DNA of 64,000 nucleotides from a virus. The stretch lies in IMG/VR virus record IMGVR_UViG_3300047160_036265, one strand, 5' to 3'. Numbering within the stretch: the stretch's first letter is position 1; each line of letters starts with the position of its first letter. Made by a program: the position numbers and the translations under genes. Below are positions 30,733-41,200 of this stretch, piece after piece. The notes beneath the pieces were generated by a model that was not told the DNA's origin, did not search any database, and was given only the letters and a program-made list of their open reading frames with translations.

Positions 30733-30760
30733 GGCTGGTTTTCCGTCTTAGCCCAGGACG
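30733..30760. repeat. hairpin motif family B copy (GGCTGGTTTnnCGTCTTAGCCCAGGACG)
   Basis: ggctggttttccgtcttagcccaggacg directly after tRNA-Arg(ACG). Confidence 0.6.
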
Positions 30761-30829
30761 ATGGGACGGTTTTCCTCATGCCCAGGAGGCGGCATTTATA
30801 CGGTGCCGTACCGAAGCATTGCAATGCAG

Positions 30830-30900
30830 TGGAGCATGAGGGAGTCGCACCCTCGCTTCTGGTCTGCCGAACCAGCGGACTCCTGTTATCCGAATGCCCC
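30830..30900 (-). tRNA. tRNA (anticodon GGC or CGG; loop UCGGCAG), G55-type T-loop
   Basis: Acceptor GGGGCAU/AUGCUCC, D-arm GGAU-AACAGGAG-UCC, anticodon arm CUGGU-UCGGCAG-ACCAG (C at 33), T-arm GAGGG-UGCGACU-CCCUC. Confidence 0.45.
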
Positions 30901-31308
30901 AATCTCAACACCCGCTACCTCCGCAATATGCTCGTCGCCGTGGTACACGTTGCCTCCCAGCCCTGGGATGTTGCAGCCGTTCCCTAGTTCGACAAGCAGA
31001 TACTTCAAAAGGTTCGCGTCCTCTACCTTGACTTCCATTTCAACATCCACCCAGATATAACCATCCGGGTGCCATTCGTTCTTCTGAGTGTGGTCAACCC
31101 ACTCCCAGGTCTTAACCCGAAGGACTTCGCCCAGCTTCTCGCCCTCCGGTATGAACGCCTCTCCGATACGAGCCGGCAGGTCGCCGTTGTCGCCCGCCGT
31201 GATAGGACACCCAGGGCCGGGGATGCTACATCCGTTGTTTTCGATCAACTCACGCAGCAGCGCCCTTTCAATACAGGGGTCCAGGGTTAATTTCACCATG
31301 ACGTTCAT
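30886..31308 (-). CDS. hypothetical protein
   Basis: Start set at MNVMVKL...; Gly/Cys-containing (CSIPGPGCP, GNGCNIPGLGG). Confidence 0.4.
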   Translation of the reverse strand: MNVMVKLTLDPCIERALLRELIENNGCSIPGPGCPITAGDNGDLPARIGEAFIPEGEKLGEVLRVKTWEWVDHTQKNEWHPDGYIWVDVEMEVKVEDANLLKYLLVELGNGCNIPGLGGNVYHGDEHIAEVAGVEIGAFG

Positions 31309-31319
31309 AGTTGATCCTG

Positions 31320-31392
31320 GCAGGAATCGAACCTGCTCTACCGCCCTCGCTGGGCGGCGTGCGATCCGGCACACTCCAGGCCAAAGCTGGTT
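31320..31392 (-). pseudogene. tRNA-Arg(GCG)-like, probably degenerate
   Basis: D-arm GUGUGCCGGAUCGCAC and T-arm GCAGG-UUCGAUU-CCUGC as in tRNA-Arg(GCG), but anticodon loop CAGCGAG has A33 and acceptor pairing is only 5 of 7. Confidence 0.35.
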
Positions 31393-31442
31393 TATACTCT
31401 TAGCTTAGGAGTTGGGCTGGTTTAACCACTTAGCCCAGGTGG
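31386..31442. repeat. two adjacent hairpin-family-B copies
   Basis: agctggtttatactcttagcttaggag and ggctggtttaaccacttagcccaggtgg. Confidence 0.55.
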
Positions 31443-31456
31443 TGCTTAACAGGCAG

Positions 31457-31528
31457 TACCCCGGAAGGGAGTCGCACCCTCCTACCTTGGTTGAGAGCCA
31501 AGTGGCCTCACTCGAAGCCGACCGGGGC
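31457..31528 (-). tRNA. tRNA-Glu(CUC), G55-type T-loop
   Basis: Acceptor GCCCCGG/CCGGGGU, anticodon arm CUUGG-CUCUCAA-CCAAG, T-arm GAGGG-UGCGACU-CCCUU. Confidence 0.55.
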
Positions 31529-31539
31529 ATAACTAACAG

Positions 31540-31612
31540 TGCGGCATACGGGAATCGAACCCGTCCCCTCACGTTGGCAACGTGATATACTCAGCCAATA
31601 TACGAATGCCGC
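31540..31612 (-). tRNA. tRNA-Gly(GCC), duplicate
   Basis: Near-identical to 27292-27364, with one substitution in the T-loop. Confidence 0.7.
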
Positions 31613-31672
31613 AGACAGTGGAGCCAGAGGGTTACGCTCCCTCCCGCCGTGGGTGCAAACCACAGGTCCAAC

Positions 31673-31870
31673 CTATTGGTGGCCCCGTTTCTCCTTCACA
31701 AAATAACCATAGAACGTATCCACTCCTTCATGCACCTTGCCTTTGTCGTCCACGATGGTTGCCTCCAGGTTGAGGCCGGCTTTTTGAAAAGCCGTCTCGG
31801 CAGACTTCTTGGACCGGAAGGACATCTCCGTGAAACAACATCCACAACTCAACTGCGCCACGAACTTCAT
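31673..31870 (-). CDS. hypothetical small protein
   Basis: Start at MKFVAQLSCGCCF, chosen to avoid tRNA-Asn. Confidence 0.35.
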   Translation of the reverse strand: MKFVAQLSCGCCFTEMSFRSKKSAETAFQKAGLNLEATIVDDKGKVHEGVDTFYGYFVKEKRGHQ

Positions 31871-31877
31871 CATAAGC

Positions 31878-31947
31878 TCCTCCCCCTGGACTCGCACCAG
31901 GAACCGTTCGCTTAACAGGCGACCGCTCTACTTTAGAGCTAGGGAGG
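31878..31947 (-). tRNA. tRNA-Asn(GUU), G55-type T-loop
   Basis: Acceptor CCUCCCU/GGGGAGG, D-arm CUCUAAAGUAGAG, anticodon loop CUGUUAA, T-arm CCUGG-UGCGAGU-CCAGG. Confidence 0.55.
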
Positions 31948-31954
31948 AATACAG

Positions 31955-32027
31955 TACCCCGCCAGGGGATCGAACCCTGCGTCGTCCGCTTAAAAGGCGG
32001 CGGCTTCACCATTGTAGCAAGCGGGGC
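31955..32027 (-). tRNA. tRNA-Lys(UUU)
   Basis: Acceptor GCCCCGC/GCGGGGU, anticodon arm CCGC-CUUUUAA-GCGG, T-loop GGUUCGAUCCC. Confidence 0.6.
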
Positions 32028-32091
32028 ATATTGGCCTCGCCGCTGCGTTTATAACGAACCATAACGAACCTCCTTTCTGGTTAGAACCGAG

Positions 32092-32163
32092 TACCCCGTA
32101 TGGGAGTTGAACCCATCTTGCCAGTTTGAAAGACTGGCGACCTCACCCGAAGTCGAACGGGGC
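32092..32163 (-). tRNA. tRNA-Glu(UUC)
   Basis: Acceptor GCCCCGU/ACGGGGU, anticodon arm CCAGU-CUUUCAA-ACUGG, T-arm AUGGG-UUCAACU-CCCAU. Confidence 0.7.
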
Positions 32164-32239
32164 ATATAGGCAGGAGAAATAGACTGCAAGAGTGTTTTTC
32201 TTACCAATAGAAGTAACCCTTACATGCACCATCCTGCCA
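32164..32239. repeat. repeat family A full unit (GGCAGGAGAAATAGA...GAAGTAACCC-N4-CTGCACCATCC)
   Basis: Spacer between two tRNAs; on the gene strand it is closed by a GGCAGGA/UCCUGCC long-range stem. Confidence 0.55.
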
Positions 32240-39775: not shown

Positions 39776-39860
39776 CCGGCCTTTGGTGTTACCACCACTG
39801 GCGTCACAGGAGTTGCACCTGTAGGCTTGCGCCCGTTACCTCAACTCGGCCAGAGGCCAA

Positions 39861-39888
39861 GGCTGGTTTATCGTCTTAGCCCAGGACG
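39861..39888. repeat. hairpin motif family B copy
   Basis: ggctggtttatcgtcttagcccaggacg. Confidence 0.6.
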
Positions 39889-39986
39889 AGAGTAGAATAA
39901 CGCCCCACTCTCCGGCTTGCCTGTTTGTGGAGTTGGCCACCCCTCTGCGTTTTTACCTGCCGCAGACCAGGCTAGTTCCACCGAAG

Positions 39987-40058
39987 TGTGTCTGGCTCGG
40001 AATCGAACCGCCGCTACCGTCTTATGAGGACGGCGTGCTGCCTTTACACCACAGACAC
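39987..40058 (-). tRNA. tRNA-Met(CAU)-like (weak T-stem)
   Basis: Acceptor GUGUCUG/CAGACAC, D-arm GUGUAAAGGCAGCAC, anticodon arm CCGUC-CUCAUAA-GACGG. Confidence 0.4.
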
Positions 40059-40061
40059 CGG

Positions 40062-40146
40062 GGGTGGATTCTCGTCTTACCCCAGGACGGTGGAGGAGTT
40101 TAACGTCATTCCCAGGACGGGGGTGGTTTATATCTTACCCCAGGAT
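40062..40146. repeat. two hairpin-family-B copies with covarying stems
   Basis: gggtggattctcgtcttaccccaggacgg and gggtggtttatatcttaccccaggatcgg. GGGTGG/TTACCC replaces GGCTGG/TTAGCC, a compensatory change. Confidence 0.55.
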
Positions 40147-40153
40147 CGGTCAG

Positions 40154-40226
40154 TTGCGGGTGGAGGAATCGAACCTCCGTCAATGGCTCATGAGGCCATC
40201 CTGGGGCCACTCCAGTGCAACCCGCA
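40154..40226 (-). tRNA. tRNA-Met(CAU)
   Basis: Acceptor UGCGGGU/ACCCGCA, anticodon arm AUGGC-CUCAUGA-GCCAU, T-arm GGAGG-UUCGAUU-CCUCC. Confidence 0.55.
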
Positions 40227-40227
40227 G

Positions 40228-40422
40228 TCAAAAATCAAAACGATCCAGGCCGCTCTCGGCCTCGATACTAGGGTTCACCGCCTCCTCGGCCACCTGGCTG
40301 TCCATTATCGCCGCCAGGGCGTAATGGCTCATGTGTTCCCGAACCACCTGAACCTGCTGGGGCGTCAACTTGGGATCGCACTGCTCCTGAATGCGGGCGA
40401 TCTCTCGGTCGAGGAAACGCAT
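40228..40422 (-). CDS. hypothetical small protein
   Basis: 64-aa ORF with an AAGGAG Shine-Dalgarno 7 nt upstream. Confidence 0.45.
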   Translation of the reverse strand: MRFLDREIARIQEQCDPKLTPQQVQVVREHMSHYALAAIMDSQVAEEAVNPSIEAESGLDRFDF

Positions 40423-40444
40423 CCTTGCTCCTTGAAAATAAAAG

Positions 40445-40548
40445 TGCGGCGGGATGGATTTGAACCACCGACCTACGGGCTAATAACCCGTTGCTCCTTG
40501 AACACTCGCCCCGAAGGGTAGGTGTTGTCTTCGCTGAGCTACCGCCGC
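40445..40548 (-). tRNA. tRNA with about 28-nt hairpin insertion in the D-loop; anticodon loop UUAUUAG
   Basis: Acceptor GCGGCGG/CCGCCGC, T-arm GGUGG-UUCAAAU-CCAUC; D-stem GCUC/GAGC encloses 39 nt including CCC-UUCG-GGG; anticodon arm ACGGG-UUAUUAG-CCCGU. Confidence 0.45.
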
Positions 40549-40626
40549 ATATCGCCCGCACCGGCTGGCTGTCTGCTAATCCAGCGTTTATCTAATCACC
40601 CCTAGAGCGGAGCCATCCACGGCATT

Positions 40627-40663
40627 CGTGAGAGCTACTTCGCCTGCGATTGCTCGCAAGAGG
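40627..40663. repeat. repeat family C copy (GTGAGA..TCGCCTGCGATTGCTCGCAAGA)
   Basis: cgtgagagctacttcgcctgcgattgctcgcaagagg; related copies at 41481-41534 and 51385-51438. Confidence 0.5.
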
Positions 40664-40858
40664 ATAATCGCCCACGATCAGCCAGTGCATCCCCGCATTC
40701 CAGGCACCAACTTGAGGGCTTTCGCTTCACCGGGGCTTTGACCCCCGCAGCCACGGGCGAGTATCAAGCCCTGTGGCTGGGCTGCTCCTTCCGGCCTGAC
40801 CCGGTGCCACAGGTTTCTGTCCAGACAGCGATTTAACTCAACTGCGCCGGCACAGAAG

Positions 40859-40952
40859 TACGGAGGGATGGAGTTGAACCACCGACCCTTAGTGCGCTGA
40901 CAAGGTTGCCCTCGCCCCGCTTTCCAATGCTCTGCCGTTGAGCTACCTCCGC
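40859..40952 (-). tRNA. tRNA with about 22-nt extra sequence between D- and T-arms; anticodon unresolved
   Basis: Acceptor GCGGAGG/CCUCCGU, D-arm GCUC-AACGGCA-GAGC, T-arm GGUGG-UUCAACU-CCAUC. Confidence 0.4.
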
Positions 40953-41039
40953 ATAAGGCGGGTTGGGTATCCCTACCCGCCCCTTTCATGTAGAATCCAA
41001 TCTTCTCTTCTTGAGTCTTCTTCTTCACCCTCTCAGCGG

Positions 41040-41068
41040 GCTGGTTTTTCGTCTTAGCCCAGGACACC
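41040..41068. repeat. hairpin motif family B copy
   Basis: gctggtttttcgtcttagcccaggacacc. Confidence 0.6.
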
Positions 41069-41171
41069 ACTCCAGCTTATTCGGCCCGGATACCCTGTCC
41101 AGGGCGTAACAACCTCCCTGGAACATCCTGCCGTGACCCAGCAAGCTGGGAATTTCGCCTGCGTGGACTTG

Positions 41172-41200
41172 GGTTGGTTTCACCACTTAACCCAGGTGGG
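41172..41200. repeat. hairpin motif family B copy (covarying GGTTGG/TTAACC)
   Basis: gggttggtttcaccacttaacccaggtggg. Confidence 0.55.

What the first reader, a model, noticed from the sequence alone, without database searches (positions are those of the whole stretch)
30733..41200. Hairpin motif family B (GGCTGGTTTatCGTCTTAGCCCAGGACG) with compensatory stem changes
About 11 copies at 30733, 31386, 31415, 39861, 40062, 40121, 41040, 41172 and around 49651-49938. The GGCTGG/TTAGCC stem is replaced by GGGTGG/TTACCC and GGTTGG/TTAACC in different copies. Because both stem positions change together, the pairing is under selection, so the motif is a structured RNA element or a protein-recognised dyad. 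The CGTCTTA core also resembles ECF-sigma -10 elements, and the element encodes two ECF-like sigma factors. Some copies (49651-49690, 49917-49938) form perfect CCAGCC-tetraloop-GGCTGG hairpins right after stop codons.
Basis: seen in the sequence. Interest (0 to 1): 0.6.

Follow-up and report, generated by a model that had tools for sequence, protein, structure and literature searches.

The report
Small RNA pseudoknot preceding phage tRNAs
The repeated motif is real, but it is a 29-base RNA pseudoknot (two interlocked mini-helices) on the opposite strand, sitting 0-2 bases in front of tRNA genes and beside other stable-RNA genes of a giant phage-like element; no RNA family in Rfam matches it and its function is still unknown.

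Summary
The motif is real. There are ten copies between 30732 and 41199, all on the minus strand, which is the strand of about 50 tRNA genes and of every gene identified. It is not a simple hairpin. Read as RNA it is a compact H-type pseudoknot: S1 NNNC/GNNN, L1 CU, S2 GGGNU/ANCCC, L2 AA, L3 NNAAACC.

Both helices covary. Across 41 distinct copies from the window and about 25 soil-metagenome contigs, 7 of 9 pairs change on both sides. G·U pairs fit only the minus strand.

Of 57 pattern hits harvested without pairing constraints, 30 keep the three free pairs. Only 1 of 28 hits in 596 Gb of bacterial and archaeal genomes does.

Copies are often tandem (x2 or x3). They end 0-2 nt before the 5' end of a tRNA or tRNA-like RNA, and in relatives they follow a tmRNA.

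No Rfam family matches. CGTC is a covarying stem, not an ECF -10 element. The hairpins at 49.6-49.9 kb are a different, nested element.

Best guess (about 0.4): a self-contained leader or spacer module of stable-RNA precursors, whose 3' end would be left almost flush by RNase P cleavage and so resist exonucleases. A released decoy or aptamer RNA is the main rival.

The parts
30732..30760 (-). Pseudoknot copy CGUC CU GGGCU AA GACG GAAAACC AGCCC. It ends 1 nt before tRNA-Arg(ACG).
   Evidence: Model R1 46.5 bits; segmentation; tRNA at 30659-30730.
30763..30789 (-). Degenerate tandem copy (CCUC CU GGGC AU GAGG AAAACC GUCC), 2 nt upstream of the previous one.
   Evidence: R1 16.7 bits. The orthologous copy in L001 has S1 changed to CGUC/GACG, a compensatory change.
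31384..31412 (-). Pseudoknot copy ACUC CU AAGCU AA GAGU AUAAACC AGCUU. It ends 1 nt before a tRNA-like RNA.
   Evidence: R1 36.2 bits. Pairs 7:29 and 8:28 are A:U here.
31414..31442 (-). Pseudoknot copy CCAC CU GGGCU AA GUGG UUAAACC AGCCC, in tandem with 31384-31412.
   Evidence: R1 45.4 bits.
39860..39888 (-). Pseudoknot copy CGUC CU GGGCU AA GACG AUAAACC AGCCU. It is directly followed by a tRNA-like three-way-junction RNA.
   Evidence: R1 47.5 bits; fold of 39776-39860.
40061..40089 (-). Pseudoknot copy CGUC CU GGGGU AA GACG AGAAUCC ACCCC. It ends 2 nt before tRNA-Met(CAU) and is the last of a triple tandem array.
   Evidence: R1 39.4 bits; tRNA at 39987-40058.
40094..40119 (-). Degenerate middle copy CGUC CU GGGA AU GACG UUAAAC UCCU.
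   Evidence: R1 13.3 bits for 40098-40119; descriptor hit.
40120..40147 (-). Pseudoknot copy (G)AUC CU GGGGU AA GAU(A) UAAACC ACCCC. It is the first of the triple array and starts 5 nt after tRNA-Met 40153-40226.
   Evidence: R1 33.4 bits.
41038..41066 (-). Pseudoknot copy UGUC CU GGGCU AA GACG AAAAACC AGCCC. An 85-nt purine-rich segment and a strong hairpin follow, then a 94-nt tRNA.
   Evidence: R1 45.9 bits; conserved in L027, L051 and L055.
41171..41199 (-). Pseudoknot copy CCAC CU GGGUU AA GUGG UGAAACC AACCC. It lies 48 nt after ORF 41248-41775 and before a 104-nt stem-loop RNA.
   Evidence: R1 39.6 bits.
32785..32813 (-). Second pseudoknot subfamily, GAGG UUU GCUGG U CCUC UAAAAA CCAGC. 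It ends 3 nt before tRNA-Gln(CUG).
   Evidence: S1 is AAGG/CCUU in L025, L041 and L057 (compensatory).
30659..30730 (-). tRNA-Arg(ACG) directly downstream of a pseudoknot; an atypical tRNA (33 bits).
31312..31382 (-). tRNA-like RNA directly downstream of a pseudoknot pair (22 bits, below the Rfam threshold).
39987..40058 (-). tRNA-Met(CAU) directly downstream of the triple pseudoknot array.
49694..49721 (-). Not a family member: a 12-bp nested hairpin CCCCUGGGCUGG-GCAA-CCAGCCCAGGGG that keeps the S2 pairing GGGCU/AGCCC.
   Evidence: R1 15.4 bits.
49921..49936 (-). Not a family member: hairpin CCAGCC-GAAA-GGCUGG starting 1 nt after the stop codon of ORF 49938-50471. A similar hairpin lies at 49654-49671.

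Best explanation
The motif is a family of about 29-nt H-type RNA pseudoknots. They are transcribed from the minus strand as part of the long untranslated stable-RNA transcription units (tRNAs, tRNA-like RNAs, Y-RNA-like and SRP-like RNAs; tmRNA in relatives) of a giant phage-like element.

Anatomy, which is shown: S1 is 3-4 bp (NNNC/GNNN). L1 is CU. S2 is 5 bp (GGGNU/ANCCC). L2 is AA. L3 is 6-7 nt and A-rich, ending in AAACC. The conserved nucleotides cluster at the helix junction, while the distal ends of the helices covary freely.

Mechanism, which is inferred: each unit is a self-contained, very compact fold, with L3 probably lying in the S1 minor groove. It serves as the leader or spacer module of the RNA that follows. 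Its 3' strand ends 0-2 nt before the mature 5' end of the downstream tRNA. Ordinary RNase P cleavage would therefore leave an upstream fragment whose 3' end is buried in S2 with almost no overhang. That fragment would be a poor substrate for 3'-to-5' exonucleases. The folded leader would also be unable to invade the weak, atypical tRNA beside it.

The structural part is about 0.9 likely. The cap or insulator mechanism is about 0.35-0.4 likely.
For: Copies and strand; all tRNAs and identified genes are on the minus strand.

Covariation in both crossing helices: 95% of cells are paired and 7 of 9 pairs change on both sides (63 cells). None of 500 shuffles reaches this, and slid controls give 29-47% paired.

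Test without pairing bias: 30 of 57 distinct hits to a word pattern that leaves pairs 2:16, 3:15 and 10:26 free have all three paired. Only 1 of 28 hits in 596 Gb of bacterial and archaeal genomes does. About 5% is expected by chance.

RNA sense: 15 G.U pairs in S2 and no A.C.

Orthologous compensatory change: window 30763 copy CCUC/GAGG against L001 CGUC/GACG.

Fixed 3' adjacency: the gap to the downstream tRNA is 0-2 nt in the window, L003, L025/L057, L027, L032, L033, L049 and L051. The distance to the upstream RNA varies from 5 to 97 nt.

Other stable-RNA contexts: the motif lies 1 nt or 35 nt after a phage tmRNA and before a hairpin plus terminator.

The core is kept in contigs of 37-40% GC as well as 53-59% GC.

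tRNAs adjacent to the pseudoknot are atypical: 22-50 bits against a window median of about 56.

No tRNA gene encodes CCA, so 3' trailers must be cut endonucleolytically and would be released.
Against: There are no transcript or end-mapping data. RNase P cleavage at the junction and exonuclease resistance are both inferred.

Many tRNAs in the same arrays are separated by only 3-5 nt with no pseudoknot, so the module is not generally needed for processing.

A helix 1-2 nt from the cleavage site might hinder bacterial RNase P rather than help it. This rests on established knowledge that the RNase P protein binds a single-stranded leader.

In tandem arrays the protected upstream RNA is only another pseudoknot or a tRNA trailer, so the benefit is unclear.

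Some copies are followed by non-tRNA sequence.

The strict conservation of loop nucleotides (C5, U6, A12, A13, AAACC) would fit a specific partner as well as a stable fold.

Nested-structure energy gives no signal (z from -0.8 to +1.2), so the support is purely comparative.

The 41-sequence alignment was harvested with a pairing filter, so its percentage paired is biased. The 30/57 against 1/28 comparison is the unbiased test.
Confidence: 0.4

Rival explanations
1. It is a trans-acting small RNA. The pseudoknots are the product. The tRNA-processing enzymes (RNase P at the 3' side, RNase Z or RNase E at the 5' side) release them from tRNA precursors, singly or as tandem arrays. The released RNA acts as an aptamer or decoy for a protein, for example a host defence nuclease or a tRNA-binding factor.
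For: The junction and loop nucleotides are invariant across diverged contigs of very different GC content. Tandem x2 and x3 arrays occur. The position relative to upstream RNAs is flexible, and the motif occurs in non-tRNA contexts. CCA-less tRNAs imply that trailers are released. The S1 loop C-U-NNNNN-A-A resembles an anticodon loop paired in cis with a 'codon' (sequence reading).
Against: No candidate partner was found. No ToxN, Cas6 or other nuclease family appears among the ORFs scanned. Upstream copies in arrays are often degenerate (13-17 bits), which is odd for a dosage array. There are no expression data.
Confidence: 0.25
2. It gates tRNA maturation. The folded pseudoknot, 1-2 nt from the cleavage site, blocks RNase P until a ligand, a protein or a change in conditions opens it. 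This would be riboswitch-like control of the 5' maturation of a particular set of atypical tRNAs.
For: The architecture and size are those of the smallest aptamers, such as preQ1-I (my knowledge). Conserved nucleotides are concentrated at the helix junction. The gap to tRNA +1 is a strict 0-2 nt.
Against: No Rfam riboswitch matches even at E <= 10. Tandem copies and non-tRNA contexts are not explained. There is no obvious alternative structure.
Confidence: 0.1
3. It is a hitch-hiking or selfish repeat. The motif spread with the duplication of one tRNA gene family, or like a REP element, and has little function of its own.
For: The tRNAs downstream of copies share a D-arm (GGUGUAAnGGUAGCAC), which suggests paralogy. 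Some copies are degenerate.
Against: Compensatory changes maintain both helices between paralogues and between orthologues. The GC-rich core persists in 38% GC contigs. Copies also lie beside tmRNA and non-tRNA RNAs.
Confidence: 0.08
4. One reading: it is a DNA signal, either an ECF-sigma-type promoter (CGTCTTA as -10) or a protein-bound dyad.
For: Two sigma-like ORFs exist in the window. The motif abuts tRNA starts.
Against: CGTC covaries with GACG as a helix and is often a different tetramer. It was read on the non-coding strand. The conserved blocks are too close together for a -35/-10 pair. G.U wobble is strand-specific. Good sigma-70-type promoters are present elsewhere, for example 34528-34499, and none overlaps a copy.
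Confidence: 0.03
5. It is a small self-cleaving ribozyme, or a mimic of repeat RNAs (a type III antitoxin of the ToxI kind, or a CRISPR repeat).
For: It is a pseudoknot next to phage tRNAs, as theta ribozymes are. It forms tandem pseudoknot repeats, as ToxI does. In some copies a hairpin is followed by AUAAACC, as in type I-E repeats (my knowledge). A polynucleotide kinase/phosphatase is encoded at 61225-62382.
Against: It has 29 nt and no P3/L3/P1.1/P4 equivalents, and there are no Rfam ribozyme or CRISPR hits (the only one is CRISPR-DR15 at E = 1.1). The distance to the upstream tRNA is not fixed. The repeats are not near-identical, there is no single-stranded linker for toxin cleavage, and no toxin gene was found. 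AUAAACC is AUA only in some copies.
Confidence: 0.04

Closest known systems
Compact luteovirus-type H-type pseudoknots (for example the 28-nt BWYV frameshift pseudoknot). From my knowledge.
   Same: The size is almost the same. L1 is 2 nt and starts with C. The loop crossing the minor groove of S1 is 7 nt and A-rich. The helix junction is conserved.
   Different: The context is untranslated stable-RNA operons, with no slippery site or ORF. S1 is shorter and S2 longer. There are two junction adenines. Copies are repeated in tandem.
preQ1-I riboswitch aptamer (Rfam RF00522). From my knowledge.
   Same: The topology and the order of elements are the same (P1, pyrimidine L1, P2, L2, A-rich L3), at about 30-34 nt.
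   Different: There is no Rfam match. There is no C in L2 to pair with the ligand. The motif is not upstream of queuosine genes, and it is tandem and abuts tRNAs.
MALAT1/MEN-beta 3' triple helix followed by the tRNA-like mascRNA. From my knowledge.
   Same: An A-rich, triplex-type structure lies immediately upstream of an RNase P site defined by a tRNA-like fold. Cleavage leaves a protected 3' end.
   Different: That system is eukaryotic and uses a U-rich hairpin plus an A-tract, not an H-type pseudoknot. Here the cleavage and the protection are only inferred.
Tandem pseudoknots 5' of a tRNA-like domain: tmRNA PK2-PK4, and the TMV upstream pseudoknot domain with its tRNA-like structure. From my knowledge.
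   Same: Two or three closely packed H-type pseudoknots lie directly 5' of a tRNA-shaped domain. Relatives of this element carry a tmRNA next to a copy.
   Different: Here the units precede separate, apparently ordinary tRNA genes. Their sequences are unrelated to the pseudoknots inside the phage tmRNA.
Theta (minimal HDV-like) ribozymes next to phage tRNAs (PMC10879173; only the title and the start of the abstract were seen).
   Same: A small pseudoknotted RNA placed beside tRNA genes in phage genomes.
   Different: As I recall, theta ribozymes sit 3' of the tRNA, are about 50-60 nt and have the nested double-pseudoknot HDV fold. This motif is 29 nt, is fixed to the 5' side of the downstream tRNA, and lacks the HDV core.

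Membership tests
H-type RNA pseudoknot (structural class) | Two helices in the order S1-5', S2-5', S1-3', S2-3', each supported by covariation | tested here: met
   S1 has 3 of 4 pairs and S2 has 4 of 5 pairs with changes on both sides; 0 of 500 shuffles reach this. Searches give the unbiased control.
H-type RNA pseudoknot (structural class) | Both helices form at the same time, with loop lengths that allow it sterically | not testable with these tools
   Loop lengths (L1 2 nt over 5 bp; L3 6-7 nt over 3-4 bp) are compatible by comparison with solved pseudoknots (my knowledge). 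Simultaneous formation needs probing or a solved structure.
preQ1-I riboswitch (RF00522) | Match to the family covariance model | tested here: not met
   No hit at E <= 10 in 30600-31500 or 39700-41300.
preQ1-I riboswitch (RF00522) | Location in the 5' UTR of queuosine synthesis or transport genes, and a ligand-pairing C in L2 | tested here: not met
   The copies precede tRNAs and small RNAs. L2 is AA in the eight strong window copies and in all 41 aligned copies (AU in the two degenerate window copies, which were left out of the alignment); the harvest pattern allowed only A or G at the first L2 position and A or U at the second, so a C there was excluded by design.
HDV-like / theta ribozyme | Nested double pseudoknot with P1, P1.1, P2, P3/L3 (and P4) and a catalytic C in J4/2; cleavage at its own 5' end, directly after a tRNA | tested here: not met
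   Only two helices in 29 nt. No Rfam hit. The distance from the upstream tRNA varies from 5 to 97 nt.
ECF-sigma promoter | Conserved -35 (GGAAC-like) and -10 (CGTC-like) elements 16-17 bp apart, upstream of genes on the same strand | tested here: not met
   CGTC varies and covaries with its partner. It was read on the strand opposite to all genes. No -35 partner is present (sequence reading).
Intrinsic terminator | GC-rich hairpin of 5 bp or more followed by a U tract on the transcribed strand | tested here: not met
   No minus-strand terminator-like site overlaps a copy. The stems are 3-5 bp with no U tract.
Type III toxin-antitoxin antitoxin RNA (ToxI-like) or phage pseudo-ToxI | Near-identical tandem repeats of 34-45 nt with a single-stranded A-rich cleavage linker, next to a ToxN-family toxin gene | tested here: not met
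   The units differ by compensatory changes and the linkers are 0-2 nt. No ToxN or defence family was found in neighbouring ORFs. A toxin encoded by the host cannot be excluded.
CRISPR repeat / RNA anti-CRISPR (solitary repeat unit) | Close similarity to a CRISPR repeat family | tested here: not met
   The only match is CRISPR-DR15 at 19 bits, E = 1.1, against a gathering score of 36. The host's repeats are unknown.
Any Rfam 15 family | Covariance-model match at the gathering score or at E <= 10 | tested here: not met
   apart from the CRISPR-DR15 match at E = 1.1 (19 bits, far below its gathering score of 36), nothing overlaps a copy.

The most novel reading that the evidence does not exclude
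The pseudoknot is an anticodon-arm/codon mimic. The loop of S1 reads C-U-[5 nt ending in U]-A-A, like tRNA positions 32-38, and pairs in cis with an A-N-C-C-C 'codon'. The tRNA-processing machinery would release it, singly or in arrays, as a decoy that occupies a tRNA-recognising factor. Candidates are a host anticodon nuclease or other tRNA-targeting defence, an enzyme that modifies the anticodon loop, or the ribosomal decoding site. If so, it would be an RNA-based counter-defence embedded in a phage tRNA array.
Probability: 0.07. Interest if true: 0.8.

Novelty: new variant of a known kind. Interest (0 to 1): 0.55.

Why it matters
Giant phages carry dozens of tRNAs, but almost nothing is known about how those long untranslated arrays are folded, cut and protected. 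This is a well-supported conserved RNA fold that matches no Rfam family, and it is tied by position to the 5' ends of tRNAs and other stable RNAs. It is small enough (29 nt) for direct structural and biochemical study. If it caps 3' ends made by RNase P, it would be a bacterial-virus counterpart of the MALAT1/mascRNA arrangement. If it is a released decoy or a gate on RNase P, it would be a new layer of phage control over translation or defence. It also shows that the apparent ECF promoter reading was an artefact of reading a stem on the wrong strand.

Tried and rejected
- Sigma-70, ECF and sigma-54 promoters: the spacing and the strand are wrong, and the supposed contacts covary.
- Terminator: no U tract and the stems are too short.
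- Known RNA families: Rfam at gathering score and at E <= 10 finds no significant match over the copies; the only overlapping match is CRISPR-DR15 at E = 1.1.
- Alternative S2 register CUGG/CCAG: it fails in the GGGGU/ACCCC and AAGCU/AGCUU copies (sequence reading).
- A structure-only descriptor, with no sequence constraint, is not specific: 122 hits in the window against 66-94 in shuffles, and 148 against about 69 with a light constraint. The family is therefore defined by core sequence plus pairing.
- Nested folding energies carry no signal.
- Relatives were not found in INPHARED phages or in IMG/VR, by motif or by protein. The exact protein is not on record. One 91%-identical homologue gave contig L001.
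- Translation starting right after the 41038 copy, in the manner of an IGR IRES: the open frame is not conserved in L051.
- A NusG-like antiterminator idea from a KOW hit at 19448-19894: the ORF translation looks spurious and there is no structural match.
- Literature searches found no description of this motif.

Full report
**Observation.** A loose scan and hand alignment give ten copies between 30732 and 41199. These are the eight listed plus two degenerate ones at 30763-30789 and 40094-40119. A covariance model built later scores the eight at 33-47 bits and the two degenerate ones at 13-17 bits. All are on the minus strand.

The sites at 49651-49938 are something else. On the minus strand they are nested hairpins with GNRA tetraloops: 49654-49671, 49694-49721 (12 bp) and 49921-49936. 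They share the words GGGCU/AGCCC and AAACC with the motif but lack the second helix. Only the last one follows a stop codon.

**Setting.** The window carries 48 tRNA genes by ARAGORN, plus a few more by Rfam, all on the minus strand. The genes identified are also all on the minus strand:
- Asp/Lys/Asn-type, Cys and Trp/Tyr aminoacyl-tRNA synthetases and an AlaRS fragment
- EF-Tu and ribosomal protein S12
- a split DNA polymerase III alpha
- NAD-dependent DNA ligase
- a TROVE/Ro60 protein
- a polynucleotide kinase/phosphatase
- two sigma-like proteins

The content is that of a giant phage-like element. That identity is inferred, because no structural genes lie in the window and the PHROG evidence is thin. 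No tRNA gene encodes CCA. The motif must therefore be read on the minus strand, as RNA.

**Structure.** On that strand a typical copy is CGUC CU GGGCU AA GACG AUAAACC AGCCC. S1's loop supplies the 5' strand of S2, so the helices cross and form an H-type pseudoknot.

Within the window S1 appears as CGUC/GACG, CCAC/GUGG, ACUC/GAGU, CCUC/GAGG and UGUC/GACG. S2 appears as GGGCU/AGCCC, GGGGU/ACCCC, GGGUU/AACCC and AAGCU/AGCUU.

**Relatives.** There was no match in INPHARED or IMG/VR. A 91%-identical homologue of a neighbouring ORF led to contig L001, which keeps the copies. In one orthologous copy it changes S1 from CCUC/GAGG to CGUC/GACG.

One scan of JGI metagenomes used a word pattern that leaves pairs 1:17, 2:16, 3:15, 10:26 and 7:29 free. 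It returned 56 loci. Many of them are tRNA-dense contigs with the motif on the tRNA strand.

Of 57 distinct pattern hits, 30 have pairs 2:16, 3:15 and 10:26 all paired, where about 5% is expected by chance. The same pattern in 596 Gb of bacterial and archaeal genomes gave 28 hits. Only one of these is paired, and it lies on a Gemmataceae MAG contig, L074. That scan serves as a natural null, and it shows that the family is essentially confined to this clade.

On an alignment of 41 distinct copies, the pseudoknot is 95% paired and 7 of 9 pairs change on both sides (63 cells). No shuffle reaches this, and slid registers give 29-47% paired. This alignment was harvested with a pairing filter, so the 30/57 against 1/28 comparison is the unbiased statistic.

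G.U pairs occur 15 times in S2, and A.C never does, which fixes the RNA-sense strand. With the model, true copies score 32 bits or more and chance pattern hits 26 bits or less. The core is kept in contigs of 37-40% GC as well as 53-59% GC.

The invariant positions sit at the helix junction: C4:G14, C5, U6, U11:A25, A12, A13 and AAACC. Part of this invariance was imposed by the harvest patterns.

**Context.** Copies occur singly or as tandem pairs and triples with 0-2-nt linkers.

The 3' end of the last unit lies 0-2 nt before the 5' end of a tRNA or tRNA-like RNA. This holds in the window (Arg-ACG, Met-CAU and the tRNA-like RNA at 31312-31382) and in L003, L025/L057, L027, L032, L033, L049 and L051. 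The distance to the upstream tRNA varies from 5 to 97 nt.

The adjacent tRNAs are atypical, at 22-50 bits against a window median of about 56, and they share a D-arm.

Other copies flank a stem-loop RNA and precede a purine-rich segment. In relatives they lie 1 nt or 35 nt after a phage-encoded tmRNA and before a hairpin plus terminator.

A second subfamily with the same architecture (GAGG UU GCUGG U CCUC AUAAAA CCAGC) precedes tRNA-Gln. It shows its own compensatory change.

**What it is not.**
- No Rfam family matches at gathering score or at E <= 10. That covers preQ1, HDV-like, pistol and ToxI; the only CRISPR match is CRISPR-DR15 at E = 1.1.
- No promoter-like or minus-strand terminator-like site overlaps a copy, while good sigma-70-type promoters exist elsewhere.
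- CGTC cannot be an ECF -10 element. It covaries as a stem and was read on the non-coding strand.
- No ToxN, Cas6 or other candidate nuclease was found among about 80 ORFs scanned.
- Nested folding energies carry no signal.

**Mechanism.** What is shown is a conserved compact pseudoknot RNA, embedded in stable-RNA operons and positionally locked to the 5' boundary of the next RNA.

My preferred reading is inferred, at about 0.4. The unit is a self-contained leader or spacer fold. Because S2 ends 0-2 nt before tRNA +1, RNase P cleavage would leave the upstream fragment with a nearly flush, helix-buried 3' end that resists 3' exonucleases. This is analogous to the MALAT1 triple helix upstream of mascRNA. 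The sequestered leader would also be unable to mispair with a weak tRNA.

The main rival, at about 0.25, is that the released pseudoknots are themselves the product: a decoy or aptamer RNA. This would better explain the invariant loops and the tandem arrays. Less likely are the following:
- a gate on RNase P access (0.1)
- a hitch-hiking repeat (0.08)
- ribozyme or repeat-RNA mimics (0.04)
- the DNA-signal reading (0.03)

**Comparison and novelty.** In size and loop design the motif resembles luteovirus frameshift pseudoknots and the preQ1-I aptamer. In arrangement it resembles tandem pseudoknots 5' of tRNA-like domains (tmRNA, TMV) and the MALAT1/mascRNA junction. These comparisons are from my knowledge. 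It fails the membership tests for each named family. Literature searches found no description. I rate it a new variant of a known kind: a previously undescribed small pseudoknot family in a new context, with its function open.

Noticed in passing
window 32164-32244, 32632-32709, about 51300-51377 (minus strand); also just 3' of the tRNAs at 27509, 28948 and 3919: A second repeated element of about 75 nt fills other tRNA-tRNA spacers. It has a closing stem GCAGGA/UCCUGC and conserved GGUGCA...GGGUUACUUC. One copy gives a weak full-length hit to YrlB, a Y RNA-like family (21 bits, E = 0.16). A TROVE/Ro60 gene lies at 51570-53588, so these may be phage Y RNAs.
   Followed up: partly
window about 40560-40850 (minus strand): An SRP-RNA-like segment. 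It has a partial Archaea_SRP hit (E = 0.0016) and the motif GGUCAGGCCGGAAGGAGCAGCC, which is conserved in L027, L051 and L055.
   Followed up: partly
window 32785-32813 (minus strand); L001, L003, L025, L041, L046, L057: A second pseudoknot subfamily (GAGG UU GCUGG U CCUC AUAAAA CCAGC) lies 3-4 nt upstream of tRNA-Gln. S1 shows a compensatory change, GAGG/CCUC to AAGG/CCUU.
   Followed up: partly
window 49654-49671, 49694-49721, 49921-49936, 39627-39670 (minus strand): Nested hairpins built on the same GGGCU/AGCCC pairing and preceded by AAACC, three of them with GNRA tetraloops. One starts 1 nt after the stop codon of ORF 49938-50471. The word CCUUAAACCCCC is also repeated twice between 49.6 and 49.9 kb.
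   Followed up: partly
window, all tRNA genes (for example 3409-3482 and 33182-33739): None of the roughly 50 tRNA genes encodes CCA. Nearly all end N73-C followed by U, and many are only 3-5 nt apart. This implies endonucleolytic 3' processing and CCA addition.
   Followed up: partly
window 40859-40952, 40444 to about 40550, 30830-30900 (minus strand): Unusual tRNAs. One is 94 nt with an internal insertion. One is a tRNA-Asn(AUU) candidate with a D-loop insertion of about 40 nt. One begins 15 nt before the stop codon of ORF 30886-31311.
   Followed up: no
L054 6967-7327, L024 5010-5362 (also L010 and L056): Related contigs encode a tmRNA (tags AEENTLRLAA and AENDLRLAA) between the two halves of a split DNA polymerase III alpha. 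ClpP, SpoVR and DUF444 genes lie nearby. A pseudoknot copy follows the tmRNA.
   Followed up: partly
L074 617-645 (Gemmataceae MAG contig): This is the only well-paired copy found in 596 Gb of bacterial and archaeal genomes. It lies about 30 nt after a gene on a contig binned as Gemmataceae. It may be a mis-binned phage fragment or a hint to the host.
   Followed up: partly
window 211-1563, 8375-9151, 21298-21996, 24683-25861, 38627-39001, 56106-57320, 61225-62382: A dense set of translation and RNA-repair genes: four aminoacyl-tRNA synthetase genes or fragments, EF-Tu, ribosomal protein S12 and a polynucleotide kinase/phosphatase. No relatives were found in INPHARED or IMG/VR.
   Followed up: partly
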